This document shows, in pieces, positions 3,620 through 34,158 of a stretch of DNA of 64,000 nucleotides. The translations under genes were made by a program, and so were the position numbers. The DNA comes from Candidatus Enterousia sp. (lineage in GTDB: Bacteria; Pseudomonadota; Alphaproteobacteria; Rs-D84). The notes under the pieces are model-generated. The model made no database searches. It saw only the letters and a program-made list of their open reading frames with translations, and had not been told where the DNA came from. The stretch is taken from the NCBI GenBank assembly GCA_045648945.1, contig JAZROX010000052.1, forward strand, positions 8,417 to 72,416. Direction: 5' to 3'. Every line of letters starts with the position of its first letter. Within the stretch, counting starts at the first letter, position 1.

Positions 3620-4690
3620 ATGAACAGGTTGGAAATATTTTATGCCAAAATGGTTTGTCGTTTCAGTAATGACAAACGTATTTCTATTTGGCGTAAATTG
3701 GTATCACTGTTGAAAAATGATTTTACGTTGGTGAATGCGTTGAACCGGTTGCAGATGATAGAATCGCACGGGGGCGCAAAACCGAACGAGCCTTTTGCAA
3801 TATGTATGCGGGAATGGGAAAAAAACCTGGAACGTGGGATGAGTTTTTCCGAGGCCACACGTGGTTGGGTCCCGGCCGAAGAAACATTGCTGCTTACATC
3901 CGGGAATATGTCCAGTTTGATTGTTGCGTTGGAAAACGTTGGGCGGATAATTGTTGCGAATAAAAGAATAGGGGGCGCGGTATTCAGTGCGATTGCATAT
4001 CCGACATTATTGTTGGTTTTGGTGTTTGCGATTATAATTATGGTTGGTTTGTATTTGGTGCCGCCTTTGTCCCAGATTGCCGGCGATAATATGGTTTGGT
4101 CGGGTGCGGCGGCGTCATTGATTTGGCTATCGAATTTGGCCGGAAATTATTGGAAAGAGTTTTCAATTGCATTTGTTGTTTTTGGAATTTTTGTATGGTG
4201 GTCTTTGCCGCGCCTATCGGGGCGGGTGCGCGCATTCTTTGATAATTTGCCACCATGGAATATATATAAAATTCGTTTGTCGGTAAGTTGGATGATGTCA
4301 TTGTCCGCCATGGTGGCGGCCGGGGTCACGATTCCCGATGCAATGCGAATGTTGGCGGATAATTCTAATCGGTATTTGCGGCGTATTTTGGAAGAAACTT
4401 TGCATTATATCGCGAATGGTGACAACCTTGGGGTGGCGTTACAGAACACGGGTATGGATTTTCCAAATAATGAATTGATTGGCGATTTGACAATTTATGC
4501 CGATATGAACGATTTTGATGAAAATTTGACCCAGATTTCAAATGACTATTTGGAAAATTCGGTCAAGAAAATAGAATCTTTGGCGGAAACATTAAACACG
4601 GTTGGTATAATTTTAATATCGGCGGTTATTGCATGGATTGTTATGGGAACCTTCCAGATGCAGGACCAGATAACGGCGTTTTTAAGTTAG
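3620..4690 (+). CDS. GspF/PilC-family inner-membrane platform protein
   Basis: 356 aa, starting 2 nt after the ATPase stop. Hydrophobic segments alternate with helical cytoplasmic repeats, as in GspF/PilC/R64 PilR. Confidence 0.8.
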   Translation: MNRLEIFYAKMVCRFSNDKRISIWRKLVSLLKNDFTLVNALNRLQMIESHGGAKPNEPFAICMREWEKNLERGMSFSEATRGWVPAEETLLLTSGNMSSLIVALENVGRIIVANKRIGGAVFSAIAYPTLLLVLVFAIIIMVGLYLVPPLSQIAGDNMVWSGAAASLIWLSNLAGNYWKEFSIAFVVFGIFVWWSLPRLSGRVRAFFDNLPPWNIYKIRLSVSWMMSLSAMVAAGVTIPDAMRMLADNSNRYLRRILEETLHYIANGDNLGVALQNTGMDFPNNELIGDLTIYADMNDFDENLTQISNDYLENSVKKIESLAETLNTVGIILISAVIAWIVMGTFQMQDQITAFLS

Positions 4691-4772
4691 TGGTTTATTT
4701 ATATTTATGTAAAATCGAAGTGGGATTTCTTGGTTGAAAAAAGTGAAATTTTGATTATCATAAACCACAGAA

Positions 4773-5813
4773 ATGGCAAGACTAAAACAGTATTTTAGTG
4801 AATATAAAAAACAAAGCGAACCAGATAAACGTGCCCGTGCGGAAAACTGGGGGGTGGCCATTGGGTTGCAACAGGTTGATAATTTAACCCCATCTAGATA
4901 TTTAATTGGTATCGCAAGAGATAACATAGAAGGCAAAATATCGGTCTATGATGCAGAACGTGAAATAAATCGTTATTATCATGAAAATGTTGCATCCACC
5001 AAGCAAGAACAAGATGAGCAAGAAGCGGACAAAGTATCTGTGCGTATTGCCAAATTGCTAAGTGAAAAGACATTCAAGTTCAGTCCCGCCGAATATAAAT
5101 CGATTCATGGGGCTTTGTTTAAAGGAATATTGGATAAAAAAATAGCAGGTAAGTTTCGCACATATAATATAACCAAGAAAGAAGAAATCTTGAACAATGA
5201 CACCGTTATTTATGGTCGGGCGGCCAGTATTGCCGAAACGTTGGAATATGATTTTGCACAAGAGAAAAAGTTCGATTATAAAAATTTAACAAAACGTCAA
5301 CGCATAGAACATATTGAAAAGTTTATGTCTGGGATATGGCAAATTCACCCGTTTGGTGAGGGTAACACTCGCGCTACGGTTGTGTTTGTTATCAAATATC
5401 TGGAAACAATGGGGATGCATACAAATAATGATATGTTTGAAAAATACGCGAAATATTTCAGGAATGCGCTGGTTCGTGCCAATTATCAAAACCTGGAAAA
5501 GAATATTCCGTATACAATGGAATACTTGAACAAGTTTTTTGGTAATTTATTGTTGGGTGAAAAAAATCGCCTTGATAATCGTGAAATGCAGATAAAGAAA
5601 ACTGAATCAAAAACTACCCAGAAAACTACCCAGAAAACCGCCCAGAAAATTTTGGGTGTGTTGGCGAAAAATCCAAACGCAACACGTGCCGATTTGGCGG
5701 TGGCAACAGGCCTTAGTACGGACGGTGTAAAATGGAATTTGAATAAACTGAAACGGTCCGAAAAAATACGCCGCATCGGCCCGGATCGTGGCGGTCATTG
5801 GGAAGTGTTATAA
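4773..5813 (+). CDS. Fic/DOC-family protein with C-terminal winged-helix-like tail
   Basis: Fic core variant HPFGEGNTRATV (canonical HxFx[DE]GNGRxxR). In-frame 3 x 12-nt repeat at nt 5613-5648 encoding TTQK-TTQK-TAQK. C-terminal GLSTDGVKWNLNKLKRSEKIRRIG. Confidence 0.8.
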   Translation: MARLKQYFSEYKKQSEPDKRARAENWGVAIGLQQVDNLTPSRYLIGIARDNIEGKISVYDAEREINRYYHENVASTKQEQDEQEADKVSVRIAKLLSEKTFKFSPAEYKSIHGALFKGILDKKIAGKFRTYNITKKEEILNNDTVIYGRAASIAETLEYDFAQEKKFDYKNLTKRQRIEHIEKFMSGIWQIHPFGEGNTRATVVFVIKYLETMGMHTNNDMFEKYAKYFRNALVRANYQNLEKNIPYTMEYLNKFFGNLLLGEKNRLDNREMQIKKTESKTTQKTTQKTAQKILGVLAKNPNATRADLAVATGLSTDGVKWNLNKLKRSEKIRRIGPDRGGHWEVL

Positions 5814-6106: not shown

Positions 6107-6250
6107 ATGAATAATAAACCAGAAAAAGAAGAATTATTGATAGGGGCGGTTTTGGATTTTTATAGAAAGAATCCGGGTTACAGAATGTCCCAGAAAGAAT
6201 TTATGGGTTTGATATGCGCCCTGTGTCAACAGGTGATGAGTGATATTTAG
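6107..6250 (+). CDS. 47-aa conserved small protein, copy A (unknown function)
   Basis: ATG 6107 preceded by AAAGGAAAG. Differs from copy B (11755-11898) at 5 of 144 nt, four synonymous and one Ile/Val. The longer track ORF (6062) would start inside the terminator hairpin. Confidence 0.6.
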   Translation: MNNKPEKEELLIGAVLDFYRKNPGYRMSQKEFMGLICALCQQVMSDI

Positions 6251-6355
6251 TGGTTAGTGTTTAGTGTTAGTGGATAGTAGAATCTGGCATAATTTCATAA
6301 TTACGAAATAATTCCAGACACCACTAGCCACTAACCACTTACACTAACCACTCTA
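6248..6355. repeat. Palindromic intergenic element built from TAGTGGT-type heptamer arrays
   Basis: The plus-sense array TAGTGGTTAGTGTTTAGTGTTAGTGGATAGTAG starts on the stop codon of the small ORF. Its inverted counterpart (6318-6355) starts on the stop codon of the convergent gene. The centre carries a TCTGGnATAA...TTCCAGA box. Confidence 0.85.
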
Positions 6356-6925
6356 TACCATAAACGGCAGGTTTTCCAATGTGCCTTCGGCGACACGCAG
6401 GTTCACGTCAATCATCATGAATACGCAATCGGGACTGGCCGTGGCCAAATCCGGATGAAAAATGTGATTGGACAGCAAGTGGCTGGTATTCACCGATATC
6501 TTGGTAATCAAATGGTCGTCGTCCAACAGGGTATAAATCGGCCCGGCGTCACGCGGAACGTTTTGGCCAATTTCATGTTCGTTTTGCGGGCAACGCAGAC
6601 CATCGAATAATGTTTTAATCCGATTGTCGATATCCGAACGCGGAACACCGATAATTTCTGGGTGCAGCATTTGGATGTCCAATTCTGCAATCAATTTCAA
6701 TTTTGGGGTAATAATTGGGTTCCAATCTATGCCGCCAATGTGCCGGGTTATAACCGGGCTTTTGGCCGGGTTTGGTGCCATATACTGGGTCAATTTATCC
6801 CACGGTTGATGTTCGACCAATTTCTTTAATTGTGGGTGAAATTGCATGCGGATGTCCGAAATATGCTGGGCCCGTTTCTTGGGATTTATTAAAATTTCAC
6901 CAAAATACAATAACTTGAATTTCAT
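6353..6925 (-). CDS. RusA-like endodeoxyribonuclease-fold protein (enlarged, 190 aa)
   Basis: SDIDNRIKTLFDGL followed by LLDDDHLI lines up with E. coli RusA RDLDNLQKAAFDAL ... WLDDAQV (catalytic D70, D72, K76, D91). Roughly 70 extra residues are inserted relative to the 120-aa RusA. Confidence 0.45.
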   Translation of the reverse strand: MKFKLLYFGEILINPKKRAQHISDIRMQFHPQLKKLVEHQPWDKLTQYMAPNPAKSPVITRHIGGIDWNPIITPKLKLIAELDIQMLHPEIIGVPRSDIDNRIKTLFDGLRCPQNEHEIGQNVPRDAGPIYTLLDDDHLITKISVNTSHLLSNHIFHPDLATASPDCVFMMIDVNLRVAEGTLENLPFMV

Positions 6926-10099: not shown

Positions 10100-10735
10100 A
10101 TGTTTGACGCCAAATGGTTCTTTGATTTGGAAAAGAAAATACGCGAAATGGGCGCCGATAGCGACGCCCAATCTTTTGATGAAATTCGTGATAATTTGGC
10201 ACATCCGCGCACGTTTTCGCCCGATGAATTTGCAACTATGTGTGCATATGTGATTCTGGCCGGGGGATTTTCACAAAAAACCGCAAAGCGTATTCATAAA
10301 AATATTATGGATTATATTTATAAAAATGGTGCGGATTTTGATGCGATTTTCCAAATGTTTCATAATAAAAATAAAGTATCCGCGATTTGTAAAATTTGGG
10401 AAGGGCGGGTCGCCCTGTGCCACGATTTTTATAATTGTGTGACGGATGAATCCCGTTTGGTATACCTGGCGCGGTTGCCACATATTGGTAAAATTACCGC
10501 GAATCATTTGGCGCGAAATTTGGGTGTTGATGTGGTGAAATATGATGTTTGGATACGACGGCTTGGTGCCCTATACGCCGGAATCCGCCATACAGACGAA
10601 TTGACACCGGAATTGCGGGCGGCGTGTGATGATATGTTTTCATATTTGGTGCGTGAAACCGGTTTGCCACGCGGATATATTGATGTGGTGTTATGGAAAG
10701 CGTGTCAGTTAAAAATAATAAGTGTTAATGGCTAG
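10100..10735 (+). CDS. HhH-GPD superfamily DNA glycosylase-like protein
   Basis: LPHIGKITANHLARNLGVDVVKYDVWIRR aligns with EndoIII [30 protein letters not shown] (helix-hairpin-helix plus catalytic Asp). The ATG abuts the stop of the JAB gene (TAAATG). Confidence 0.55.
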   Translation: MFDAKWFFDLEKKIREMGADSDAQSFDEIRDNLAHPRTFSPDEFATMCAYVILAGGFSQKTAKRIHKNIMDYIYKNGADFDAIFQMFHNKNKVSAICKIWEGRVALCHDFYNCVTDESRLVYLARLPHIGKITANHLARNLGVDVVKYDVWIRRLGALYAGIRHTDELTPELRAACDDMFSYLVRETGLPRGYIDVVLWKACQLKIISVNG

Positions 10736-10813
10736 TGTTTTCTGGAATAACTATACAATGATAAAATTATTCCAGAGTTTACTAACCACTTACACTATCC
10801 ACTAACCACTTAA
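10733..10813. repeat. Palindromic heptamer-family element (short left arm, long right arm)
   Basis: Begins on the TAG stop at 10733. Perfect 10-bp hairpin TCTGGAATAA (10741-10750) / TTATTCCAGA (10767-10776). The right arm is ACTAACCACTTACACTATCCACTAACCACTTA. Confidence 0.8.
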
Positions 10814-10831: not shown

Positions 10832-11497
10832 ATGGATGTGAAAATTGAAGAATCTTGGAAACGCGTGTTGGCGGATGAATTTGATAAAGATTATTTTATC
10901 AAACTGACCGATTTTGTGCGCGGGGAATATATGGCGGGCAAAAAAATTTATCCAGCGGCCAAGAATATTTTTAATGCGTTCAACCTGTGTCCTTTTGATT
11001 CTGTGCGTGTTGTGATTATTGGACAAGACCCGTATCATGAACCAGGCCAGGCGATGGGCCTCTGTTTTTCTGTGCCGGATGGTGTAACACCGCCGCCGTC
11101 GCTGGTTAATATCTATAAAGAAATTGAATCGGACCTGGGGCGGCCTAGTCCAACGCACGGTGATTTGACATCTTGGGCCGGGCAGGGTGTATTGTTGTTA
11201 AATTCAACCTTGACCGTTGCGGCACATTTGGCGGCATCGCACGCGGGGCGTGGATGGGAACAATTTACCGATGCGGTGATTCGGCAACTGGCCATGCGAC
11301 GCAATGGGTTGGTTTATATACTCTGGGGGGCGTACGCGCAAAGAAAGGCGGAAATTGTGGACGCGTCAAAAAATCTGATTTTAAAAAGTGTTCATCCATC
11401 GCCACTGTCTGCGCATAGGGGTTTTTTTGGAAACCATCATTTTAGTCGGGCTAATGAATACATTGTTGCGCATGGTGGAAAGCCGATAGATTGGTGA
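10832..11497 (+). CDS. ung: Uracil-DNA glycosylase, family 1
   Basis: GQDPYH and HPSPLS motifs. ATG 10832 with GGAG 9 nt upstream; the track start 10814 is a GTG inside the repeat element. Confidence 0.93.
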   Translation: MDVKIEESWKRVLADEFDKDYFIKLTDFVRGEYMAGKKIYPAAKNIFNAFNLCPFDSVRVVIIGQDPYHEPGQAMGLCFSVPDGVTPPPSLVNIYKEIESDLGRPSPTHGDLTSWAGQGVLLLNSTLTVAAHLAASHAGRGWEQFTDAVIRQLAMRRNGLVYILWGAYAQRKAEIVDASKNLILKSVHPSPLSAHRGFFGNHHFSRANEYIVAHGGKPIDW

Positions 11498-11520
11498 TTG
11501 GTGGTTAGTGTTTTTTCTGT

Positions 11521-11754: not shown

Positions 11755-11898
11755 ATGAATAATAAACCGGAAAAAGAAGAATTATTGATAGGGGCGGTTT
11801 TGGATTTTTATAGAAAGAATCCGGGTTACAGAATGTCCCAGAAAGAATTTATGGGTTTAATATGCGCCCTGTGTCAGCAGGTGATGAGCGATGTTTAG
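11755..11898 (+). CDS. 47-aa conserved small protein, copy B
   Basis: Same length, frame and Shine-Dalgarno sequence as copy A. The only amino-acid difference is the C-terminal Ile to Val. Confidence 0.6.
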   Translation: MNNKPEKEELLIGAVLDFYRKNPGYRMSQKEFMGLICALCQQVMSDV

Positions 11899-12022
11899 TG
11901 GGTAGTGGTTAGTGGGTTCTGGAATAAATTCGTAATTTTAAACTTTATTTTTTTTATCGAATCTACCCCACCGGCTATGCCGGTCCCCCCCTTCAGGGAA
12001 CCTGAAGGGGAATAACCACTTA
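11896..12022. repeat. Heptamer-family element between small ORF B and the convergent PagL-like gene
   Basis: TAGTGGGTAGTGGTTAGTGGGTTCTGGAATAA starts on the ORF stop. A 10-bp hairpin CCCCTTCAGG/CCTGAAGGGG lies at 11988-12010. The right end GGAATAACCACTTA ends on the stop of the minus-strand gene. Confidence 0.7.
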
Positions 12023-20770: not shown

Positions 20771-20785
20771 TAACGTATCCTTTGT

Positions 20786-22387: not shown

Positions 22388-22399
22388 GCGTACGTCTTT

Positions 22400-22744
22400 T
22401 TATCTTTGGTTTTGTTTCATTCTGCCCAGGTATTTATCGTTGTTTGCCCCCGGCATTTTTACAACCACATTTGTTGTGCCGTTTTCCAAACATTCAAAAT
22501 CGGTTGATTCACCCGGTTCCATAACAATAATGTCCCCAGCCACGTATTCTGTACCATTCATTTTTACGCGTCCAGATATAATACAGGTGTATTCTGTTGC
22601 AATTTTGTGATAATGCATTTCTTCAAAATCACCCTTGTTATATGTTTTGACCGCGACTTCGGCAACATTTGTCTTAAATAAAGACGGTTCAAAATTTCCA
22701 ATAAACCACCCTTTGGTCATTTCTGATAATTTTGCGGTTTTCAT
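22400..22744 (-). CDS. Cupin-domain protein (114 aa)
   Basis: HYHKIATEYTCIISGRVKMNG...GDIIVMEPGE matches the two-motif cupin pattern. Confidence 0.65.
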   Translation of the reverse strand: MKTAKLSEMTKGWFIGNFEPSLFKTNVAEVAVKTYNKGDFEEMHYHKIATEYTCIISGRVKMNGTEYVAGDIIVMEPGESTDFECLENGTTNVVVKMPGANNDKYLGRMKQNQR

Positions 22745-22745
22745 T

Positions 22746-23480: not shown

Positions 23481-23481
23481 A

Positions 23482-25488: not shown

Positions 25489-25489
25489 A

Positions 25490-26422
25490 TTAACGCTCCT
25501 TGGTTTTCATATAATTAATCATATCTGCAATAGTTTGTTGTAATGTGTATTGTGGTTTCCACCCCAGTTCTGTTTTTAATTTAGAATTATCACCAACCAC
25601 CGATGGTATTTCGTTTGCGCGAACACGTGACGGGTCAACAACTATATTCGGTTTTATTCCCAACGTGTTTGATGTAGTATCAATAATGTCGCGTAATTTT
25701 ACACCATGACCACTGCATACATTATAAACACTGCGATTCGGGGCGTTTTTGATTATTTTATAATATGCGTCAACAACGTCACGAACATCCGTGAAATCGC
25801 GCACTACATCGATATTGCCAACCATCATTTTGTTTTCAATTTTGCCACCCGCAATGTTCACCAGTTGTTCAACAAAAGACGGTATCACAAATCTTGTGTT
25901 TTGGCGGGGACCAATATGATTGAATGAACGTGTCATTACTATATCCATACCAAAATTATCTACATATAATTTCGACATGTATTCTTGGGACAGGCGCGCA
26001 ACCGAATACGGACTTTTGGGATGCAGCACAAAACTTTCATTCATTGGTGTATCGTAAATTCCGTATTCTTCGGACGACCCCACAGACAAAATTCGTGTCT
26101 TTAAATTATTTGTACGGACACCATCTGCCAAATTCAAGAATGCCGACATATTGTTTACAAAACAATTCGCCGGTTCGGCCCAACTTTGCGCAACCGAAGA
26201 TATGGCCGCCAAATGTACAATATGGTCAGGTTTAACATTTTGGATGAAATCGTTCACCTTGGTGGCGTCCATCAAGTTTAATGCTTTATATTCAATGTTC
26301 ATATCACAATTTGGTGCAATATCAACACCATAAATCTTTGCGTCTGGTTCATGTTTGTCAAGGTATTCAACAAAATAACGCCCCACAAACCCCATTACAC
26401 CAGTTATCAGATATTTGCTCAT
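25490..26422 (-). CDS. Extended-SDR NAD-dependent epimerase/reductase (candidate GDP-4-keto-6-deoxymannose reductase)
   Basis: Rossmann motif ITGVMGFVGRY and GSSEEYG. The catalytic position reads PYSVAR instead of Y-x-x-x-K. Lies directly downstream of gmd. Confidence 0.7.
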   Translation of the reverse strand: MSKYLITGVMGFVGRYFVEYLDKHEPDAKIYGVDIAPNCDMNIEYKALNLMDATKVNDFIQNVKPDHIVHLAAISSVAQSWAEPANCFVNNMSAFLNLADGVRTNNLKTRILSVGSSEEYGIYDTPMNESFVLHPKSPYSVARLSQEYMSKLYVDNFGMDIVMTRSFNHIGPRQNTRFVIPSFVEQLVNIAGGKIENKMMVGNIDVVRDFTDVRDVVDAYYKIIKNAPNRSVYNVCSGHGVKLRDIIDTTSNTLGIKPNIVVDPSRVRANEIPSVVGDNSKLKTELGWKPQYTLQQTIADMINYMKTKER

Positions 26423-26458
26423 TTGTTTTACCCTTAGAATTACATTATATTGATGTGG

Positions 26459-27508
26459 TTAAAATTGCTGTAACTTTTTTTCTTTTGCGGCCAATTTTAA
26501 ATCTTCGGCGACCATTTCGCGTGCCAAAGATTGCCAATCGTATGTCGGTTTCCATCCAAGTTCCGTACGTGCCTTGGTTGAATCGCCCAATAATAAATCA
26601 ACTTCGGCCGGGCGGAAGAATTGCGGATCAACCGCGACAACGGTTTTGCCGGTTGCACGGTCAACAGCCTTTTCATTTATGCCGGTCCCAGACCATTCCA
26701 AATCGAACCCGGCCGCCGTAAAGGCAACTTTGACAAAATCGCGGATGGATGTTGTGACGCCGGTCGCCAAAACATAATCCGATGGCTTTTCGGCCTGGAG
26801 AATGCGCCACATGCCTTCGACATAATCACGTGCATGACCCCAATCGCGTTTAGAATCCATATTGCCCAGATATAAACAATCTTGCAGTCCTTCTTTGATA
26901 CGTGCCGCCGCCAATGTAATTTTGCGGGTCACAAAGTTGTCGCCGCGGCGCGGACTTTCATGATTAAACAAAACACCGTTGCACGCAAACATGTTATAGG
27001 ATTCACGATAGTTCACGGTAATCCAATAACCATATAATTTCGCAACACCATACGGGCTGCGTGGATAAAATGGTGTTTTTTCAGATTGAATTGGTTCTTG
27101 GATTAAACCGAACAATTCGGATGTCGATGCCTGGTAAAAGCGTGTTTTTTGTGCCAAACCATTTGTATGAATTGCTTCTAGTAATCTTAATACGCCGATT
27201 GCGTCAGATTCCGCAGTGAATTCTGGACAGTCCCAAGAAATTTTAACGTGACTTTGTGCCGCCAGGTTATAAACCTCGTCCGGTTGTATTTCGCGAATTA
27301 AATTATTTAAACTGGTTGAATCTGTCATGTCGCTGTAATGCAGATGAAGTTTATTAATAATATGATCGATTCTTTGTGTGTTTGGAACAGATGCGCGACG
27401 AATAATGCCATGAACTTCGTAACCTTTGTCCAACAATAATTCGGCCAAATATGATCCGTCTTGTCCGGTGATACCTGTGATTAGTGCAATTTTCATTTTT
27501 TGCTCCAT
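26459..27508 (-). CDS. gmd: GDP-mannose 4,6-dehydratase
   Basis: [36 protein letters not shown] and [12 protein letters not shown]. The start may be the second ATG at 27496. Confidence 0.92.
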
Positions 27509-27519
27509 TTTTTATTTTT

Positions 27520-27957
27520 TTAGTTATCTTTGTTCCAGTTCGCCAAAATCCAAGACGAAGAATTTGCCTTGGTTTCCCCGCCAATACCAAAAACAACATC
27601 AACATTGCACTCTTGGGCGGTTGGGATTTCTGGGATATTATTTTTTGTTCTGTCGCCACCGTTTGCAAAGACCAAGTGGGCGTCCGGGTATTTATGACGA
27701 GCCTTTTTTATTCCGTCACATGCGGTATTATCAGAATCATCGAATTCTATAACATCTATGACACCTTTGATGTTTTCCAATATGGTGCGGCGAGTGTTCA
27801 TAGAATAAAAATTTTTACCTTTCTTGCGACATAACCATGCGTCGGAGTTCGCCAAGACAATTACGCCATCAGAGGCCACTGCGGATGCACGTATCATTTC
27901 AATATGACCTTCGTGAATAGGGTCAAATCCACCGGATACAATGTAATAAGTTTTCAT
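27520..27957 (-). CDS. Cytidylyl/adenylyltransferase-like nucleotidyltransferase (HxGH family)
   Basis: GGFDPIHEGH motif near the N-terminus. 145 aa. Confidence 0.7.
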   Translation of the reverse strand: MKTYYIVSGGFDPIHEGHIEMIRASAVASDGVIVLANSDAWLCRKKGKNFYSMNTRRTILENIKGVIDVIEFDDSDNTACDGIKKARHKYPDAHLVFANGGDRTKNNIPEIPTAQECNVDVVFGIGGETKANSSSWILANWNKDN

Positions 27958-29222
27958 ACGTCAAACCCCTTGTTAAATTCGTCGATGATTATTTGTATCG
28001 TTTTGTCCCAAGAAAATAACTTTGAACGTGCAAGTCCACGTGTTGCCATGGATTTGCGATATTTTTCATCAAAGTAATATTTTTCGTATGCCGCGATATG
28101 TTGTTTGTTGTTATCCCAATCTATGGTTATACCGGCATCACCAACAACCTCTGGCAAAGAAGAATTATTTGATGTAATAACCGGACATCCACATTTCATT
28201 GCCTCTAGTGGTGGCAACCCAAAACCTTCGTATTGTGAAGTGTAAACAAACCACTGGGCCCCAGAATACAACGCCGCCAAATCCGCATCATCAACGTATC
28301 CGGCACGAATGATTTTATTGCGATATTTCCCCAGGTCTTGAATTTCGCCTTCAAGTTTTTCAATAAATTTATTCCAATGCCCGCCACCAAGAACAAAAAC
28401 CATATCGTCAATTTTGTTTTTTTTGATAAATTCTATGAATGTTTTGATTGCACGAATTAAATTCTTGCGTGGTTCCAATGTGCAAAGTGAAAATATGTAT
28501 TTTTTATTGGTTGGAATATTATACTTTTCAAGAATTTTTCTTATCTTGCTTTTGTCTTGCTCTTGATAAAAATTGTCACCCGCCGCCAAAGGTGTCACAA
28601 TAATATCATCTGGGTGCACGTTTAACAGTCTAACAAAGTCGTTTTTTGTGGATTGAGATATTGCAAAATATTTGCATTTCGGTTTCGATTTTATGTATTT
28701 AATTAATGTGTCATACCAAAAATTCTTTTTACACCGGAGTGCGTCATAGTAATTCGGTAACAGTATTGGAATCGCATCATATAAAACAACGTATTTCTTG
28801 GTGGCCTTGATTTTATTCGATGGAATGTATATCGGAGATATCACAATATCAAAATTTTGTGTTTTGTGTAATCGGCCAATCATATGAATCGGTTTTCGGA
28901 CAAATATGTTTAGTAATAATTTTGTGATATTACATCTTTTCGCCCGCAATTTCGTATCCAAAATCGATAGCTTGTTTAATAAAACTGCATATTTATTTCC
29001 AAAATAAATTTTTATATCTTTGCCAAAATTCTTTTCCACGAAAGCAATAAAATCTTTGCTGCACACATTGTTGCAAAATAAAGAAATATCAAATTGTTGC
29101 GATTTTACAAGGTTTGTTAATATGTTATATGCGGCAAAGTATATACCAGAACGCCCGGCGGAAAAATTGGAAATGTTATCCGAAATAACAGATGCGTCGA
29201 ATAATAAGGTTTTCTTACTCAT
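27954..29222 (-). CDS. Glycosyltransferase, GT4 family
   Basis: [36 protein letters not shown]. First gene of the minus-strand glycan operon. Confidence 0.85.
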
Positions 29223-29429
29223 AATGGGCGCCTATTGTAAAAACTCCATAATTTTGTTAACATTTAACAGCCGCTTTTGTTTAATGTATCGGCATTATAA
29301 AATAAAAAATCATAAGTTTCAATAAATTAAACCTGTTTTTTATATGGTGGCCAAAATGAAAAAATAAAGCATTTTATCGTTAAATTTGTATGGTTGTAAT
29401 TTGAAATTTTTGGGTTATAATCAAAAAAC

Positions 29430-30191
29430 ATGTATAAAAATCAAGATATTTTAAATTCTTTCTATGCGGCGGCTGATGCGAAGCACAGACGTTACAATAC
29501 GATGTATATAAATTCGATTGATGGCAATCGTATTATCGGTGTGCGGACGCCGAAATTGCGTGCGATGGCCTGTGATATGGTGGAAAATGGCACGTGGCGT
29601 GATTTTGTTGCCGATTTGCCGCACCATTTTTTTGAGGAAAATCAAGTGCATGCGTTTATTATTTCGGAAATTAAAGATTTTGATTTCGTGATCGATGCGG
29701 TTGATAGATTTTTGCCGTATGTTGATAATTGGGCCACATCCGACCAGATGTCACCAAAGATATTTTCAAAAAATACCAAAAAATTGTTGCCGTATATACA
29801 AAAATGGATTAAGTCGGATAATGTTTATGCGGTGCGTTTCGCAATAATTTGCCTTATGCGGTATTATTTGACCGACAGGTTTGATGAAAAATATGTTCGT
29901 ATGGTTGCGGACATTAAATCCAAAGAATACTATATAAACATGGCACGTGCGTGGTATTTTGCCACCGCCGCCGCGAAGCAATTTGATACGGTTTTGCCGT
30001 ATTTCGCACAATTGGATCTTTGGACGCGTACGCGCGCGATTGAAAAATCATTTCAATCCTATCGCGTGGACGAAGAAAATAAGTTAAAATTGAAAGAATT
30101 TAGGCAAAGGATAAAAGATGAACAACGTATTAGATGCAATAAAAAATCGTCGATCCGTTTACGGAATAAACAAGAATTTACCGATTTTTAA
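29430..30191 (+). CDS. DNA alkylation repair protein (AlkD-like HEAT-repeat family)
   Basis: The pattern GVRTPKLRAMA...W..F...LPHHFFEENQVHAF...YVDNWATSD is typical of the DNA_alkylation family. Confidence 0.65.
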   Translation: MYKNQDILNSFYAAADAKHRRYNTMYINSIDGNRIIGVRTPKLRAMACDMVENGTWRDFVADLPHHFFEENQVHAFIISEIKDFDFVIDAVDRFLPYVDNWATSDQMSPKIFSKNTKKLLPYIQKWIKSDNVYAVRFAIICLMRYYLTDRFDEKYVRMVADIKSKEYYINMARAWYFATAAAKQFDTVLPYFAQLDLWTRTRAIEKSFQSYRVDEENKLKLKEFRQRIKDEQRIRCNKKSSIRLRNKQEFTDF

Positions 30192-30705
30192 AGATAAAAT
30201 TGTGGATTTGGTGCGTGAATGTGTGCGGTATGTGCCGGACGCATTTAATATGCAAAGTCAACGGGTTGTTGTTTTGATGGATGGGCGGCACGAAAAATTT
30301 TGGGATGCGGTTTATGATGAATTGGTTCGGGCGACCGGTAATGAATTGCCACGTGAACGTATTGATTCTTTTGCAAAAGGTGCGGGAACGATTCTTTATT
30401 TTTATGATTCTGCGGTTGTCGAAGAAATGCGGCGACAATATCCACTGTATGCGGCAAATTTTCATGATTGGGTTATGCAATCGAATGGAATGTTGCAATT
30501 TGCGATATGGACTGCACTGGAAACATATGGGGTTGGGGCGAACCTGCAACACTATAATCCGGTCATAGATAAAATGGTGCGTGAAATGTTTAATTTGCCG
30601 GATGCGTGGACATTGGTTGCGCAAATGCCATTTGGCGGAATCGAAAAAACGCCGGCACCAAAGAGTTTTGAAGATATCAATCTGCGTGTAAAAATTGAAA
30701 AATAG
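30118..30705 (+). CDS. Nitroreductase-family protein
   Basis: N-terminal LDAIKNRRSVY signature. 195 aa. Overlaps the upstream ORF by 74 nt. Confidence 0.8.
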   Translation: MNNVLDAIKNRRSVYGINKNLPIFKDKIVDLVRECVRYVPDAFNMQSQRVVVLMDGRHEKFWDAVYDELVRATGNELPRERIDSFAKGAGTILYFYDSAVVEEMRRQYPLYAANFHDWVMQSNGMLQFAIWTALETYGVGANLQHYNPVIDKMVREMFNLPDAWTLVAQMPFGGIEKTPAPKSFEDINLRVKIEK

Positions 30706-30817
30706 ACCAAAAGACCACTTCCCGGTGTTCCACACCGTACTCCTCCACAGAAGGAGAACTATTTTTGCTTGATTTTTATAACTGGCTGGGTATAATCATT
30801 TGGCAAATTATCCATTG

Positions 30818-30891
30818 GCCCTAATAGTCTAGTGGTAAAACACGTCCTTGGTAAGGACGAGTCGCAAGTCCGATTCTTGCTTAGGGCACCA
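30818..30891 (+). tRNA. tRNA-Thr (GGT)
   Basis: Acceptor stem GCCCTAA/TTAGGGC, anticodon stem CGTCC/GGACG with loop TTGGTAA, T arm GCAAG-TCCGATT-CTTGC, and encoded CCA. Confidence 0.9.
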
Positions 30892-31068
30892 CAGATGCAT
30901 CATCTGGTTTGCGTTTGTTCGTTTTTGTTTCAGGTCGTGTATGTTTTTATACACTCCCATCACAAAAACTTTACAATACGCACCATCTAATACATTTGTG
31001 GCACCATGCGGGCACTGCGTTGTTTGGTTTGCGGTTGTTCGTTTGTTGGTTTATGAAGAGGTTTTATT

Positions 31069-31608
31069 ATGATAAAGACTTTCCCGTCTGAAGTAATTGG
31101 TCAGAATATTAAATTGGTGAAATTGTCGCCCGTGTTGGAAAATGCAAAAATCGTTTTTGATATAATTGTTGCAAATCGTGACGAATTCAGACCTTGGTTG
31201 GAATGGACGGATTCTGTACAAAAACCGGAAGACGAACTTCCCGTTTTAGAAGGGGATAAAGATTCTGCGGAATGGTTTATTCAATGGAATAAAAAAATTG
31301 TTGGTCGGATTGGGTTTGTGAATTTATCAAAAAATAATAATTTTGGCGAGGTCGGGTATTTTTTGGATAAAAGGGCCGGCGGACGCGGTATAATGACGGA
31401 TGCGTTTGTTTTACTTGAAAAAAATGCGTTCGAAAATTGGGGTTTCAATAGAATAGAAATAAAAATAGATTCGGATAACGTTAAATCTTTGGGTGTGGCA
31501 AGACGTATGGGGTATACCAAAGAGGCATTATTGCGTCAGGACCATTTTATAAATGGGGTATATCGTGATACGGTTTTATTTTCTAAATTGAAATCGGAAT
31601 ACAAATAA
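31069..31608 (+). CDS. GNAT-family N-acetyltransferase (RimJ/RimL-like)
   Basis: KRAGGRGIMTDAF (acetyl-CoA-binding R/Q-x-x-G-x-G/A motif). 179 aa. Confidence 0.7.
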   Translation: MIKTFPSEVIGQNIKLVKLSPVLENAKIVFDIIVANRDEFRPWLEWTDSVQKPEDELPVLEGDKDSAEWFIQWNKKIVGRIGFVNLSKNNNFGEVGYFLDKRAGGRGIMTDAFVLLEKNAFENWGFNRIEIKIDSDNVKSLGVARRMGYTKEALLRQDHFINGVYRDTVLFSKLKSEYK

Positions 31609-31850: not shown

Positions 31851-33620
31851 ATGTTATCACTTAAATCAAAATACAGAACGCATACTTGTGGGGAATTGAC
31901 CGCGAAAAATGTGGGCGAAACCGTCACATTGTCGGGTTGGGTTCATCGTAAACGCGATCATGGGTCATTGTTGTTTATTGACTTGCGCGATAATTATGGA
32001 ATTACCCAGGTTGTTTTGGACGGCGGAAATGACGATTTGGAACGCGTGCGGCCGGAATCTGTGTTGCAGATAACCGGAAAGGTTGTCGCGCGTGATGCGT
32101 CACAAATAAATGAAAAAATCCCAACCGGGGAAATCGAGATTCAGGTTGAATCTTGGAATGTTTTGACATCGGCCGATGTTTTGCCTTTCCAGGTTTTTGG
32201 TGATGACGATACAAGTGAAGAATTGCGTTATAAATATCGTTTCTTGGATTTACGGCGCGAAAAATTGCACCACAATATTTTGATGCGTAACAAAATGGTA
32301 AAATGGTTGCGCGATAAAATGTGGGATTTGGGTTTTTCGGAATTTCAAACACCGTTGCTGACGGCTGATTCGCCCGAAGGTGCACGTTGTTTCCTTGTTC
32401 CTTCGCGTTTGAATCATGGTAAATTCTATGCGTTGCCCCAGGCACCCCAGATGTTTAAACAATTGTTACAGGTGTCGGGTTTTGACCGTTATTTCCAAAT
32501 TGCGCCTTGTTTCCGCGATGAAGATTTGCGTTCGGACAGATTGTTGGAATTTTATCAATTGGATGTTGAAATGTCCTTTGTTGATTTACCAGACATTCAA
32601 AAGGTTGGCGAGGTTGTAATTCCAGAATTAATCAAGACTTTTGCACCGGATGCCAATGTTTATCCGGAAATTCCGCATATTTCGTTTGATGATGCAATGT
32701 TGAAATATGGGTCCGATAAACCGGATTTGCGTAACCCGATTTTGATTTCTGATGTGACGGATATTTTCCGCGGGTCGGATTTTGGAATCTTTGCAAATGC
32801 GGTTGAAAATGGCGCCGTTGTTCGCGCGATTCCGGCACCAAAAAGTTCGGATAAACCGCGGTCTTGGTTTGATAAACTTACCGAATATGCAACCAAAGAA
32901 TTGGGGCTTGGTGGATTGGCCTATATTGTTTTTGCCGATGAACCAAAAGGTCCGGTCGCGAAAAAATTGGATGCGGACCGCATTGCCAAGTTGCATGAAA
33001 TCGCCGGTGACAATTCATCGTTGTTCTTTGTATGCGATATGGAAGAGCCAGCGTCCAAAGCCGCGGGTAAATTGCGTAATAAACTTGGGGCGGATTTGGG
33101 ATTGATTAACCCACGTGATTTTGCGATTTGCTGGGTTGATAATTTTCCGTTCTTTGAACCCGATGAAGAACGGGGCGGGGCACCAAAGTTCACGCATAAC
33201 CCGTTTTCATACCCACTTGCGACATTGGAAGAATTGTCTACGCGTGACCCATTCACGATTAAGGCGGCACAGTTCGATATGGTTATAAATGGTATTGAAA
33301 TGTGCAGTGGGGGACTTCGTAACTATAATCCAGATGTGATGAAAAAATGCTTTGATATTGCCGGATATCCGGAAGAAAAAGTTGAACAAAACTTCTCGGC
33401 GTTATATACAGCATTTAAATATGGCGCGCCACCACACGGTGGGTTCGGGTTTGGTATTGACCGTTTGATTTCCGAAATATTGGGAACTGGTGAAAGTTTG
33501 CGCGAAACGGTTGCGTTCCCGGCAAACCAACGTGGGCAAGATTTGCTTATGGGATCACCGAACGAGGTTACCGAACAACAACTGCGCGATGTGCACATCC
33601 AAGTTCGGAAGAAGAACTAG
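31851..33620 (+). CDS. aspS: Aspartate--tRNA ligase, bacterial type
   Basis: Class II motif 2 CFRDEDLRSDRLLEFYQLDVEMSF and motif 3 GGFGFGIDRL. 589 aa, with a GAD-type insertion. Confidence 0.95.
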   Translation: MLSLKSKYRTHTCGELTAKNVGETVTLSGWVHRKRDHGSLLFIDLRDNYGITQVVLDGGNDDLERVRPESVLQITGKVVARDASQINEKIPTGEIEIQVESWNVLTSADVLPFQVFGDDDTSEELRYKYRFLDLRREKLHHNILMRNKMVKWLRDKMWDLGFSEFQTPLLTADSPEGARCFLVPSRLNHGKFYALPQAPQMFKQLLQVSGFDRYFQIAPCFRDEDLRSDRLLEFYQLDVEMSFVDLPDIQKVGEVVIPELIKTFAPDANVYPEIPHISFDDAMLKYGSDKPDLRNPILISDVTDIFRGSDFGIFANAVENGAVVRAIPAPKSSDKPRSWFDKLTEYATKELGLGGLAYIVFADEPKGPVAKKLDADRIAKLHEIAGDNSSLFFVCDMEEPASKAAGKLRNKLGADLGLINPRDFAICWVDNFPFFEPDEERGGAPKFTHNPFSYPLATLEELSTRDPFTIKAAQFDMVINGIEMCSGGLRNYNPDVMKKCFDIAGYPEEKVEQNFSALYTAFKYGAPPHGGFGFGIDRLISEILGTGESLRETVAFPANQRGQDLLMGSPNEVTEQQLRDVHIQVRKKN

Positions 33621-33662
33621 TGGGTAGTGGTTAGTGTTAGTGGCTAGTGATAGTGGTTAGTG
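33618..33662 (+). repeat. Longest TAGTGGT-type heptamer array (7 units), starting on the aspS stop codon
   Basis: TAGTGGG TAGTGGT TAGTGT TAGTGGC TAGTGA TAGTGGT TAGTG. TAG occurs at offsets 0, 7, 14, 20, 27, 33 and 40, which covers all three frames. Confidence 0.9.
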
Positions 33663-33682
33663 TCGCCCGCGGCTGCGGGCGA
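33663..33682 (+). terminator. GC-rich hairpin after the heptamer array (weak T-run)
   Basis: TCGCCCGC-GGCT-GCGGGCGA followed by TATCTGTT. Confidence 0.4.
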
Positions 33683-33741
33683 TATCTGTTGAATGTTTGT
33701 TTGGTTTGTGATATAATTTTGATGATAAAAAGGAGATAAAA

Positions 33742-34158
33742 ATGGTTGATAAAAAGGCCGTTTATGATACGGGAACCCAAAAAGTTGTTACGTATGCGGA
33801 TGCAATTCAGATGTTTAATGATTTAAATGATGTGTTGGCTGCAGATGGTTTTTATCGATTCCAAGAAAAGTTAAGTGATATGGATGGGATTGGGGTTCCT
33901 GGTTTTTTGTACAAGGGTTATGCTGTGGGTCAGGGGTTGCGCAAAGTTTTAGATAATTTAGGAATAAAATATACCACACATATAAAAAGTGGAACGGGGA
34001 TAAATGAAGAATCCGAGATTTTAACAGCACCTGAATCTGTTGAGAGAATGTTAGATATTTATAAAAAAATCGGGGTCATGCAGGCGCGTCAACATATTGA
34101 AATAAATCATAAACTTGAAAAACGCCCGGATTTTATGTATCAATCTATTCTCAGATAG
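33742..34158 (+). CDS. Hypothetical protein (138 aa)
   Basis: AGGAG Shine-Dalgarno sequence 8 nt upstream of the ATG. No motif recognised. Confidence 0.5.
   Translation: MVDKKAVYDTGTQKVVTYADAIQMFNDLNDVLAADGFYRFQEKLSDMDGIGVPGFLYKGYAVGQGLRKVLDNLGIKYTTHIKSGTGINEESEILTAPESVERMLDIYKKIGVMQARQHIEINHKLEKRPDFMYQSILR

What the first reader, a model, noticed from the sequence alone, without database searches (positions are those of the whole stretch)
33618..33682. TAGTGGT-type heptamer arrays sit exactly on stop codons and supply stops in all three frames
A G/T-rich repeat with 6-7 nt periodicity (TAGTGGT/TAGTGTT/TAGTGGC...) occurs at the 3' end of several genes, always in mRNA sense.

Genes whose own stop codon is the first TAG, TAA or TGA of the array:
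- aspS (33618).
- Small ORF A (6248).
- The RusA-like gene (6355, minus strand).
- The HhH-GPD gene (10733).
- Small ORF B (11896).
- The PagL-like gene (TAAGTGGTTA, 12022, minus strand).
- ung (TGATTGGTGGTTAGTG, 11495).

The aspS and ORF-A arrays share the same TAG spacing (offsets 0, 7, 14, 20, 27), so they are homologous copies rather than random low complexity. Because of the 7/6-nt period, TAG recurs in all three frames. Possible roles are a 3'-UTR RNA element (protein-binding or stability), a transcription/translation stop module, or a selfish element that targets stop codons, comparable in spirit to REP or Rickettsia palindromic elements. I do not recognise this sequence family.
Basis: seen in the sequence. 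Interest (0 to 1): 0.65.

Follow-up and report, generated by a model that had tools for sequence, protein, structure and literature searches.

The report
Stop-codon-hugging palindromic repeats with heptamer arms
The TAGTGGT arrays are real and are the outer arms of a REP-like family of hairpin-forming intergenic repeats in an uncultured rumen alphaproteobacterium; they butt against gene ends and often supply the TAG stop, which is a new sequence variant of a known kind of bacterial repeat, not a new kind of system.

Summary

The arrays are the two arms of long imperfect palindromes: (TAGTGGT/TAGTGT)n, then a 36-nt core palindrome TCTGGAATAA..TTATTCCAGA, then (ACCACTA)n. The aspS array is a lone arm followed by a GC hairpin.

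- **Family:** the same mosaic family occurs in related rumen Alphaproteobacteria contigs.
- **Variation:** it shows presence/absence and 7- or 13-nt unit-number polymorphism.
- **Position:** where a gene 3' end is the nearest neighbour, 28 of 32 stops lie within about 26 nt of the first unit, and 10 of 32 are its first TAG.
- **Sense rule:** "always mRNA sense" follows from one rule, G-rich arm first. The other arm sits antisense in 5' leaders, as upstream of ung.
- **Spread:** TAGTGGT-type arrays with the same polarity occur in many phyla (18:1).

Known parallels are GTAG-tagged REPs, whose ends donate TAG stops, and heptameric intergenic repeats (Xanthomonas GGGAATC, cyanobacterial STRR), which follow the same placement rules.

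My best reading is a non-autonomous REP/BIME-like repeat with slippage-prone arms, tolerated at gene ends because it re-terminates every frame. Its function as an RNA hairpin is inferred. I rate it a new variant of a known kind, of moderate interest.

The parts
4686..4696 (+). One-unit remnant (TTAGTGGTT). Its TAG at 4688-4690 is the stop of the T2SSF gene 3620..4690.
   Evidence: In relative L125 the same stop opens a complete palindromic element. In the window the Fic gene 4773..5813 occupies that site.
6248..6282 (+). G-arm of palindromic element 1: TAGTGGT TAGTGTT TAGTGT TAGTGGA TAGTAGAA. The first TAG is the stop of small ORF A.
   Evidence: (I2).
6283..6318 (.). 36-nt core palindrome of element 1 (TCTGGCATAA..TAATTCCAGA).
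   Evidence: The whole element 6241-6360 folds at -48.1 kcal/mol (z -9.3) on + and -60.1 (z -11.5) on -.
6319..6355 (-). C-arm of element 1, which is a G-arm on the minus strand. The TAG at 6355-6353 is the stop of the 190-aa ORF 6353..6925.
   Evidence: The element is conserved at this junction in L125, L127 and L128, with different unit numbers and loop.
10721..10740 (+). Degenerate G-arm of element 2. It encodes the last residues and the TAG stop (10733-10735) of the 211-aa ORF 10100..10735.
   Evidence: (I5, D3).
10741..10776 (.). Core palindrome of element 2 (TCTGGAATAA..TTATTCCAGA).
   Evidence: z -4.6.
10777..10813 (-). C-arm of element 2.
   Evidence: The whole element is absent from L123, L125, L127, L130 and from metagenome alleles that skip 130-133 nt. 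A 13-nt extra double unit is present in a 99%-identical contig.
11489..11511 (+). Short array GATTGGT GATTGGT GGTTAGT G. It starts in the last ung codons, and the TGA stop at 11495-11497 lies inside it.
   Evidence: Relatives have gattggTAA followed by a plain terminator hairpin.
11896..11946 (+). G-arm (3 units; first TAG = stop of small ORF B) plus the left half of a core (TCTGGAATAAATTCGTAATT..). The right half and C-arm are lost.
   Evidence: (D2, I3).
12012..12022 (-). Single unit TAAGTGGTTAT after the PagL stop (TAA 12022-12020), followed on the minus strand by a GC hairpin. This is a weak case.
   Evidence: One unit could be chance.
33618..33663 (+). Solitary G-arm of 7 units (spacing 7,7,6,7,6,7). 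The first TAG is the aspS stop, and TAG occurs in all three frames.
   Evidence: Orthologues carry 0 to about 4 degenerate units or a full palindromic element. A rumen contig has one unit fewer.
33660..33685 (+). GC-rich hairpin (TGTCGCCCGCGGCTGCGGGCGATA) directly after the aspS array. It is shared with relative L122 and is the likely native 3' stem-loop of aspS.
   Evidence: The terminator scan does not call it because no T-run follows.

Best explanation
The arrays are the arms of a lineage-specific family of non-autonomous, mosaic palindromic intergenic repeats. The family works like REP/REPIN/BIME elements.

- **Anatomy:** a complete element reads, on either strand, (TAGTGGT/TAGTGT)n, then a conserved 36-nt core palindrome (TCTGGAATAA-loop-TTATTCCAGA), sometimes extra small hairpins, then (ACCACTA)n. 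Lone arrays such as the one after aspS are single arms.
- **Spread and change:** the family has spread to many intergenic sites in this group of rumen Alphaproteobacteria. The arms then change length by slipped-strand gain and loss of 7-nt or 13-nt units.
- **Why stops coincide:** read from the outside in, each arm begins with TAG and repeats it every 6-7 nt, so all three frames are closed within about 20 nt. An element that lands at the stop codon, or in the last few codons of a gene, costs at most a few C-terminal residues. The gene then ends on the first in-frame TAG of the arm.
- **Why the sense rule appears:** this tolerance, plus the fixed G-arm-first polarity, puts the arrays on stop codons in mRNA sense and puts the complementary arm in 5' leaders.
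- **Likely RNA role:** when transcribed, the element should fold into a 35-45 bp imperfect hairpin beginning at the stop codon. That hairpin most likely acts as a 3' end-protecting or processing stem-loop between cistrons.

Shown here: the anatomy, the family, the polymorphism, the position and the polarity. Inferred: the mode of spread, and any effect on RNA.
For: - **Real, non-random arrays:** 5 observed against 0.01 expected.
- **Palindromic anatomy and strong folds:** (I2, I5, D3); one search gives z -9.3 and -11.5.
- **Shared non-repetitive core and 7-7-6-7 unit pattern at unrelated loci:** T2SSF, small ORF/190-aa, aspS, ung and many others, in the window, in L125/L127/L128 and in 23 distinct metagenome copies.
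- **Mosaic variants with extra hairpins:**
- **Lineage-specific abundance:** 0 arrays in L121-L124, about 21 kb each, against 4 in the 4.3 kb of L157.
- **Filled and empty alleles at the 211-aa ORF/ung junction:**
- **Remodelled gene ends:**
  - The 211-aa ORF has a new C-terminus and stop encoded by the arm.
  - The 190-aa gene has TAA plus a terminator in L123, but TAG plus the element in W and L125.
- **Unit-number polymorphism:** 7 nt in the aspS array, 13 nt at 10728, and different counts in orthologues.
- **Position:** 66 arrays were scored. For 32 the nearest outer neighbour is a gene 3' end. In 28 of those the stop lies within -26..+9 nt of the first unit, and in 10 it is exactly the first TAG. 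5' starts lie 18-367 nt away.
- **Polarity:** 18 G-first inverted pairs against 1 C-first in loci from many phyla (p about 1e-4). Arrays abutting stops are G-sense 48 against C-sense 12.
- **Precedent:** GTAG REP termini often provide the TAG stop of flanking ORFs, lie mostly downstream of ORFs, and pair into larger hairpins (PMC3733652). Heptameric GGGAATC repeats show the same placement, convergent pairs and length variation (PMC4692102).
Against: - No transposase (RAYT, IS200/IS605 or IS630-like) was found or could be sought in a complete genome.
- No target-site duplication is visible at the one filled/empty comparison, where both flanks are remodelled.
- No covariation supports selection on the core stem: 88.3% of cells pair against 89.5% in shuffles.
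- No RNA data exist for this organism, so transcription, 3' ends and processing are untested.
- The hairpins lack a U-tract and are not called by the terminator scan.
- A GTAG tag beside the core is common but not constant, and is partly imposed by my search pattern.
- The same heptamer with the same polarity in distant phyla is not explained by a lineage-specific selfish element.
Confidence: 0.6

Rival explanations
1. Pure in-place microsatellites. Each array grew independently by polymerase slippage from a local seed, as a heptanucleotide long simple-sequence repeat, with no mobility and no function.
For: - Heptamers are the most abundant long SSR class in bacteria, and a slippage cause has been proposed (Mrazek 2007, as summarised in PMC4679880 and PMC4692102).
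- The ung array starts with an exact duplication of the native codons GATTGGT.
- Unit numbers differ between near-identical strains.
- The same loci hold 99 other period-7 arrays of unrelated sequence.
Against: - The arrays share a non-repetitive 36-nt core, a TAGTAG junction and a 7-7-6-7 unit order at unrelated loci.
- The two arms of one element mirror each other unit by unit.
- Whole elements are present or absent as blocks of 100-130 nt.
- Independent slippage does not predict 18:1 polarity.
Confidence: 0.15
2. A selected translation-stop module. The arrays are kept because they provide efficient back-up stops (UAG followed by U) in all three frames for read-through or frameshifted ribosomes.
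For: - TAG occurs in all three frames within three units.
- Every unit has T at +4.
- The stop equals the first TAG in 10 of 32 cases.
- Arrays abutting stops are mostly in G-sense.
Against: - The complementary arm also carries stops (TAA) in all frames, so tolerance does not explain the polarity.
- 20 of 66 arrays face gene starts, and many follow a terminator rather than a stop.
- Arrays of 5-17 units far exceed what three frames need.
- Close relatives lack them at the same genes.
- A published survey found no selection for additional 3' stops in bacteria (PMC6764699; abstract seen).
Confidence: 0.05
3. A host-beneficial cis-regulatory RNA or DNA element recognised in sequence by a protein. 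The repeat would be an array of binding sites for an RNA-binding or nucleoid protein, and the hairpin would be secondary.
For: - The same heptamer (xAGTGxx) and polarity occur in many phyla.
- Genes are often bracketed by ACCACTA upstream and TAGTGGT downstream.
- Protein-binding roles were proposed for TAACTGA repeats (PMC4679880).
Against: - No candidate protein is known.
- Unit sequence and number drift freely between close relatives.
- There is no consistent gene class.
- No Rfam family matches.
Confidence: 0.15
4. Intrinsic bidirectional transcription terminators.
For: - Element 1 is the only structure between two convergent stop codons (6250 and 6353) and folds very stably on both strands.
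- In L123 the orthologous gene end carries a canonical terminator, which the element replaces.
Against: - No U-tract follows either arm.
- The consensus scan calls no terminator at 6241-6360, 10721-10813 or 33660-33685.
- Element 2 sits 20 nt upstream of ung, inside what is an overlapping or 9-nt-spaced gene pair in relatives. A strong terminator there would silence ung.
- Many arrays lie downstream of a separate canonical terminator.
Confidence: 0.1
5. Assembly, vector or binning artefact.
For: Depth spikes on the array in metagenome contigs, and some loci start or end in arrays.
Against: - The same elements lie at the same junctions in independent assemblies from NCBI, ENA, JGI and Logan.
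- They are embedded in flanks with GC from 0.31 to 0.70, and occur in isolate genomes (Fischerella PCC 7521, Tolypothrix).
- The depth spike reflects many genomic copies with different flanks (loose ends).
Confidence: 0.01

Closest known systems
GTAG-tagged REP / REPIN / BIME elements (Di Nocera et al. 2013, PMC3733652; Bertels & Rainey 2011, PMC3116915)
   Same: - High-copy imperfect palindromes in intergenic DNA, mostly downstream of ORFs and between co-directional or convergent genes.
- Inverted dimers that fold into larger hairpins.
- Mosaic combinations with other small hairpins.
- Lineage-specific abundance and presence/absence polymorphism.
[quoted passage not shown]
- A GTAG lies 2 nt from the core in many copies.
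   Different: - The arms are tandem 7/6-nt microsatellites of variable length, not a fixed 20-40 bp stem.
- The GTAG tag is inconstant.
- No RAYT gene has been linked.
- Whole elements are 90-200 nt.
G-rich heptameric intergenic repeats: GGGAATC in Xanthomonas and GGGGA(C/T)T in Nostoc (Rehm et al. 2015, PMC4692102)
   Same: - Period 7, about 90% intergenic, and much closer to the upstream ORF (mean 28 nt) than to the downstream one.
[quoted passage not shown]
- 70-75 convergent inverted pairs per genome.
- Length differs between close species at the same gene pairs.
- Function unknown.
   Different: - The unit sequence is different.
- TAGTGGT has no G3 tracts, so the G-quadruplex rationale does not apply.
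- Here a conserved non-repetitive core joins the two arms.
- The stop codon is part of the repeat.
Cyanobacterial STRR heptamers and TAACTGA repeats of Beggiatoaceae, Cyanobacteria and Bacteroidetes (MacGregor 2015, PMC4679880)
   Same: - Tandem heptanucleotides in non-coding DNA.
- Sporadic phylogenetic distribution that hints at horizontal spread.
- The unit contains stop codons.
- Function is unexplained.
   Different: - TAACTGA repeats lie mainly just upstream of start codons and are almost never inverted (one indirect repeat among 170 sets).
- The units are different.
- No palindromic core.
MITEs that overlap gene ends (Neisseria Correia/NEMIS, Rickettsia RPE)
   Same: - Small non-autonomous inverted-repeat elements.
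- Transcribed with neighbouring genes.
- Can alter gene termini.
   Different: - No target-site duplication seen.
- No cognate transposase known.
- The ends are microsatellite arrays.
- RPEs insert in frame inside genes rather than at stops.

Membership tests
Heptanucleotide long simple-sequence repeats (LSSR) | Head-to-tail tandem units of 7 nt, longer than chance allows | tested here: met
   TRF period 7, up to 6.7 copies. 5 arrays against 0.01 in shuffles. Many arrays are better described as 13-mers (7+6).
Heptanucleotide long simple-sequence repeats (LSSR) | Unit-number variation between close relatives (slippage) | tested here: met
   7-nt deletion in the aspS array. 13-nt insertion at 10728 in a 99%-identical contig. 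Orthologous arrays have different unit counts.
Heptanucleotide long simple-sequence repeats (LSSR) | Placement rules reported for GGGAATC repeats: intergenic, G-strand sense after ORFs, convergent inverted pairs | tested here: met
   18:1; 48 against 12. Compared with PMC4692102, sections 10 and 16.
Heptanucleotide long simple-sequence repeats (LSSR) | Unit identical to a described family (STRR1-3, GGGAATC, TAACTGA) | tested here: not met
   The unit is TAGTGGT/TAGTGT. No paper in the searchable library contains the array sequence in a bacterial context.
REP / REPIN / BIME | Short (20-40 bp) imperfect palindrome repeated at many intergenic sites | tested here: met
   36-nt core in 23 distinct copies in related contigs and 2.5 copies in the window. 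Copy number per genome is unknown.
REP / REPIN / BIME | Unpaired GTAG (or CGTC) tag at one end of the palindrome | tested here: inconclusive
   GTAG lies 2 nt from the core in 4 of 6 copies that were not selected by the search pattern. It lies on the unselected side in about 4 of 13 copies.
REP / REPIN / BIME | A cognate RAYT (TnpA-REP, HUH tyrosine transposase) in the same genome | not testable with these tools
   Only 64 kb plus fragments of relatives are held. The 31 window proteins scanned (8 of them twice) gave no transposase domain. Absence from so little sequence says nothing.
REP / REPIN / BIME | Termini that abut ORFs and supply the TAG stop | tested here: met
   10 of 32 stops are the first TAG and 28 of 32 lie within -26..+9 nt. 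Same property as stated in PMC3733652, section 15.
MITE | Terminal inverted repeats | tested here: met
   The arms are inverted copies, unit by unit.
MITE | Target-site duplication at filled against empty sites | tested here: not met
   At the 211-aa ORF/ung junction, W was compared with L123, L125, L127, L130 and the X4 allele. Both flanks are remodelled and there is no duplication. Only one site was examined.
MITE | Autonomous partner with the same ends | tested here: inconclusive
   Array pairs 0.3-3.5 kb apart enclose ordinary genes. The one special case encloses a four-helix-bundle (23S IVS-type) ORF. The enclosed ORFs were judged from their first 60 residues plus one phmmer query, not scanned against a domain library.
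Intrinsic terminator | GC-rich hairpin followed by a U-tract | tested here: not met
   No terminator-like call at any element. The arms are followed by coding or leader sequence.
Any Rfam RNA family | Score at or above the family gathering threshold | tested here: not met
   Only tRNAs in the window and in 10 related loci. The permissive scan gave only weak miRNA-hairpin look-alikes.

The most novel reading that the evidence does not exclude
TAGTGGT-type (xAGTGxx) heptamer arrays may form a pan-bacterial class of polar palindromic elements, always G-arm first.
- They would bracket genes with complementary (ACCACUA)n 5' and (UAGUGGU)n 3' arms.
- They would be made or read by a conserved machinery, for example an HUH/RAYT-like enzyme on single-stranded DNA, or RNase III on the long RNA stems.
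- If so, they would act as intercistronic processing or insulating modules. That would give the long-noted excess of heptameric repeats in bacteria a functional explanation.
Probability: 0.12. Interest if true: 0.8.

Novelty: new variant of a known kind. Interest (0 to 1): 0.45.

Why it matters
Why seven-base repeats are the commonest long simple repeats in bacterial genomes has been an open question since 2007, and no function has been shown for any family.

- **A tractable case:** the heptamer arrays here are the arms of a REP-like mosaic palindrome. The family has filled and empty alleles and unit-number variants in natural populations, a strict polarity, and a tight link to stop codons.
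- **A bridge between two literatures:** it connects work on REP/REPIN elements with work on heptameric simple repeats, and it yields testable predictions.
- **Annotation:** several gene ends in these genomes, both C-termini and stop codons, are supplied by repeat DNA. Assemblies also tend to break at these arrays.

Tried and rejected
- **Exact look-up of the window's aspS product:** not on record. Homologues were used instead.
- **RNA-seq runs holding the locus:** none, so transcription could not be tested.
- **Rfam:** the gathering and permissive thresholds gave nothing real.
- **Covariation in the core stem:** no better than shuffles. Many G-U pairs appear in the orientation shown, but the sample is partly ascertained by my pattern, so I draw no conclusion about which strand folds.
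- **Link between arrays and four-helix-bundle (23S IVS-type) genes:** seen once, in L008. Only 4 of the loci held (L001-L130 plus the window) have such a gene, so I rejected it as a general link.
- **A universal 'G-arm first' rule for all heptamer palindromes:** other heptamer families in the same loci are 10 G-first against 6 C-first. Polarity is family-specific.
- **Autonomous elements between distant array pairs:** these are ordinary genes flanked by two elements.
- **Ideas weighed from sequence alone and not pursued:**
  - Anti-Shine-Dalgarno pairing by the arrays: only 5 bp of pairing with one wobble.
  - Chi-like or DNA-uptake-sequence-like roles: nothing tests them here.
- **Crude first ORF heuristic:** replaced by an unbiased nearest-neighbour analysis.
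Full report

Yes.
- The sequence at 33618-33663 reads TAGTGGG TAGTGGT TAGTGT TAGTGGC TAGTGA TAGTGGT TAGTGT, starting on the aspS stop.
- Tandem Repeats Finder reports period-7 arrays at 6247-6278, 6320-6352, 10781-10810, 11489-11503, 11896-11917 and 33618-33662.
- Runs of at least three AGTG or CACT at 6-8 nt spacing occur five times in the 64-kb window. The mean in 200 dinucleotide-preserving shuffles is 0.01 and the maximum is 1. No other tetramer behaves this way.
- The aspS TAGs cover all three frames within three units.
- The aspS and ORF-A arrays share offsets 0, 7, 14, 20, 27.

**2.

- **The arrays are arms of long inverted repeats.**
  - 6241-6300 pairs with 6301-6360. That is 60 nt at 75% complementarity with no gap between the arms (I2).
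  - 10721-10755 pairs with 10762-10796.
  - The two elements are 71% identical over 90 nt.
- **Layout on either strand:** (TAGTGGT/TAGTGT)n, then TCTGGAATAA, an AT-rich loop, TTATTCCAGA, then (ACCACTA)n.
- **Folding:** element 1 folds at -48.1 kcal/mol (z -9.3) on the + strand and -60.1 (z -11.5) on the - strand. Element 2 folds at -25.3 (z -4.6).
- **Mirrored arms:** the arms copy each other unit by unit, with the 6-nt unit in the same place, so they are true inverted copies.
- **The exception to 'always mRNA sense':** the array at 10777-10813 reads ACCACTA on the + strand. It lies in the leader of ung, whose real start is the ATG at 10832, as shown by orthologues beginning MDVKIE.
- **Weak cases:** the 'HhH' and PagL cases are one or two degenerate units.
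- **A missed case:** the T2SSF stop at 4688 sits in a one-unit remnant.
- **Gene names:** Pfam supports neither 'RusA-like' nor 'HhH-GPD'.

**3. Source organism and relatives**

The aspS and ung products have hundreds of homologues at 80-95% identity. They come from gut and rumen metagenomes, and those with names are called 'MAG: Alphaproteobacteria bacterium'. The runs that hold the locus are bovine, goat and other gut metagenomes. Contigs of relatives were fetched as L121-L130.

**4. Comparison of orthologous sites**

- **aspS 3' end**
  - W has 7 units plus the hairpin TCGCCCGCGGCTGCGGGCGA.
  - L121 (95% aspS identity) has about 4 degenerate units plus a different hairpin.
  - L122 (92%) has about 3 degenerate units plus the same hairpin as W.
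  - L123 (88%) has none.
  - L125 has a complete palindromic element with the TCTGGAATAA core.
- **Small-ORF/190-aa convergent junction:** the element is present in W, L125, L127 and L128, with different unit counts, and the loop is deleted in L125. In L123 the 190-aa homologue ends in TAA followed by a canonical terminator.
- **T2SSF:** in L125 its TAG opens a full element. In W one unit remains and a Fic gene occupies the site.
- **211-aa ORF/ung junction**
  - Relatives have overlapping genes or a 9-nt gap and no element.
  - W carries about 130 extra nt.
  - The ORF's last residues and its TAG are encoded by the degenerate left arm.
  - ung gains a new Shine-Dalgarno sequence.
- **ung 3' end:** relatives read gattggTAA followed by a plain terminator. 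W reads GATTGGT GATTGGT GGTTAGT G, an exact duplication of the native last 7 nt that leads into an array. Another relative (L142) reads gaatggTAGTTAGTGTTAGTGG followed by a full element.

**5. Population data**

- A rumen contig about 96% identical over 33564-34000 has one unit (7 nt) fewer in the aspS array.
- Depth triples over the array, and many contigs there carry unrelated flanks. The array is therefore multi-copy in the community.
- At the ung junction, contigs in three runs skip 130-133 nt, which is the empty allele.
- A 99%-identical contig carries an extra TGGCTAGTGTTAG, a 13-nt (7+6) double unit.

**6. The family**

- **Search:** I scanned metagenome contigs for TTAGTAGNNTCTGGAAT-N(12-36)-ATTCCAGA. 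This pattern has 23 specified bases, so chance hits are negligible. It returned 27 loci.
- **Yield:** together with the window and relatives L125 and L127, these gave 23 distinct family copies, all in contigs of GC 0.37-0.48. Four more hits, in contigs of GC 0.31-0.35 without arrays, look like chance matches.
- **Mosaic variants:** some copies are simple (arm, core, arm). Others carry extra hairpins between the core and one arm, such as CCCCTCTAGAGAGGGG and a variable GC stem.
- **Density:** from 0 arrays in about 21 kb (L121-L124) to 4 in 4.3 kb (L157).
- **Position, by a nearest-neighbour analysis that did not presuppose proximity.** I scored 66 non-redundant arrays.
  - 32 have a gene 3' end as the nearest outer neighbour. 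In 28 of these the stop lies within -26..+9 nt of the first unit, and in 10 it is exactly the first TAG.
  - 20 face a gene start 18-367 nt away.
  - 14 have no long ORF within 400 nt. Many of these begin directly after a terminator's T-run.
- **Stop usage:** in the window it is TAA 39, TAG 13, TGA 9. Four of the 13 TAGs belong to arrays.
- **Core stem:** no covariation beyond shuffles.
- **Rfam:** no family matches.

**7. Beyond this lineage**

- **Scan:** the genome collection was scanned for AGTGGTTAGTG-N(1-3)-TAGTG.
- **Phyla:** the loci come from Planctomycetota, Acidobacteriota, Chloroflexota, Cyanobacteria (including isolates Fischerella PCC 7521 and Tolypothrix), Firmicutes, Fibrobacter, Bacteroidales, Verrucomicrobia relatives and others, with GC from 0.31 to 0.70.
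- **Are the hits real?** About 830 chance hits would be expected in 596 Gb. However, 85 of the 120 loci have more units than the pattern required, up to 17, and 40 have two or more arrays.
- **Polarity:** inverted pairs are G-first 18 times and C-first once (binomial p about 1e-4).
- **Sense at stops:** arrays with a long ORF's stop within -30..+10 nt are in G-sense 48 times and C-sense 12 times (p = 3e-6). At GC < 0.55 the counts are 20 and 4.
- **Other heptamers:** the same loci hold 99 other period-7 arrays of unrelated sequence. Their inverted pairs are G-first 10 and C-first 6, so polarity is a property of each family and not a universal law.
- **Gene bracketing:** genes are often flanked by ACCACTA upstream and TAGTGGT downstream. 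That is what two flanking G-first elements produce.

**8. What is known**

- Heptanucleotides are the commonest long simple repeats in bacteria, and slippage at the polymerase was proposed as the cause (Mrazek 2007, as summarised in PMC4679880 and PMC4692102).
- Xanthomonas GGGAATC and Nostoc GGGGA(C/T)T repeats (PMC4692102):
  - are about 90% intergenic;
  - lie on average 28 nt from the upstream ORF;
  - form 70-75 convergent inverted pairs per genome;
  - vary in length between close species;
  - have no known function.
- GTAG- and CGTC-tagged REPs lie mostly downstream of ORFs and pair into larger hairpins. [quoted passage not shown]
- No paper in the searchable library contains a TAGTGGT array in a bacterial context.

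**9. Interpretation**

- **Best supported reading:** a REP/BIME-like mosaic palindromic repeat whose arms are slippage-prone heptamer arrays.
The element always reads G-arm first. That puts TAGTGGT in sense after stops on both strands and ACCACTA in 5' leaders.
- **Why stops coincide with the first TAG.** The arm closes all three frames at once, so an element at or just inside a gene end is tolerated and the gene adopts the arm's TAG. The 211-aa ORF, T2SSF and the 190-aa gene show this.
- **How the family spreads is not shown.** No transposase is known, and there is no target-site duplication at the one filled/empty pair.
- **What the RNA does is inferred.** A 35-45 bp stem starting at the stop codon should act as a 3' protecting or processing structure. 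It is not a canonical terminator, because it has no U-tract, and element 2 lies inside an operon-like gene pair.
- **What remains unexplained:** why the same heptamer and polarity recur in distant phyla. That is the basis of the more novel reading I could not exclude.

**10. Verdict**

This is a new sequence variant of a known kind of element, of moderate interest.

Noticed in passing
window 5861-6106 and 11512-11754; L125 about 5200-5450; L123 about 1700-1930: A conserved leader of about 250 nt lies upstream of the small ORFs.
- It holds a hairpin CCTCCAAC-loop-GTTGGAGG.
- A second CCTCCAACCG could pair with that hairpin as an alternative.
- An AACCGT..ACGGTT stem plus T-run follows.
The layout is attenuator- or riboswitch-like. 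In L123 the same leader precedes a 392-aa signal-peptide protein instead. No Rfam match.
   Followed up: partly
window 6107-6250 and 11755-11898: There are two copies of a 47-aa ORF (MNNKPEKEELLIGAVLDFYRKNPGYRMSQKEFMGLICALCQQVMSDI).
- They lie inside a segmental duplication of about 450 nt (5838-6305 against 11478-11945, 85-93% identical).
- The copies differ by 4 synonymous changes and 1 conservative change.
- A 55-aa homologue is conserved in L125 and L127.
It is probably a real small protein. No Pfam family matches.
   Followed up: partly
window 4773-5813: A Fic/DOC plus winged-HTH gene is inserted between T2SSF and the small-ORF module, at the place where relative L125 has a palindromic element.
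   Followed up: partly
window about 12800-31600, next to tRNA-Met 12724-12798: An island of about 19 kb is absent from the gyrB-ung-PagL-aspS synteny of L123 and L125. It holds a RhuM-family gene, a T7-tail-fibre-like N-terminus, three GT4 glycosyltransferases, two GDP-mannose dehydratase/epimerase-family proteins, an FkbM methyltransferase, and HAD and nucleotidyl-transferase genes.
   Followed up: partly
L008 3191-3662 (Ruminococcus MAG): A G-first pair of TAGTGGT arrays encloses a 122-aa ORF that I recognise from memory as the four-helix-bundle / 23S rRNA intervening-sequence protein family; it was not scanned against a domain library. The gene would sit in the loop of a long stem, as in rRNA intervening sequences. 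This was seen only once among the loci.
   Followed up: partly
L001-L120 generally, e.g. L053 692-775, 3032-3116, 5615-5713; L050 3762-3933, 6125-6292: Genomes that carry TAGTGGT arrays are rich in other period-7 arrays of unrelated sequence, often as inverted pairs: 99 such arrays in about 0.85 Mb. Some genomes seem generally permissive for heptamer repeats.
   Followed up: partly
window 10814-10831: The mechanical ORF for ung starts at GTG 10814. Orthologues show the real start is ATG 10832, preceded by GGAG. The first 6 codons of the listed ORF are element and leader sequence.
   Followed up: yes
window 5976-5996 and 11626-11646, minus strand: The CCTCCAAC..GTTGGAGG hairpins are followed by a T-run on the minus strand and are called terminator-like there. 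They could end minus-strand transcripts that read through element 1 and run antisense to the small ORF.
   Followed up: no
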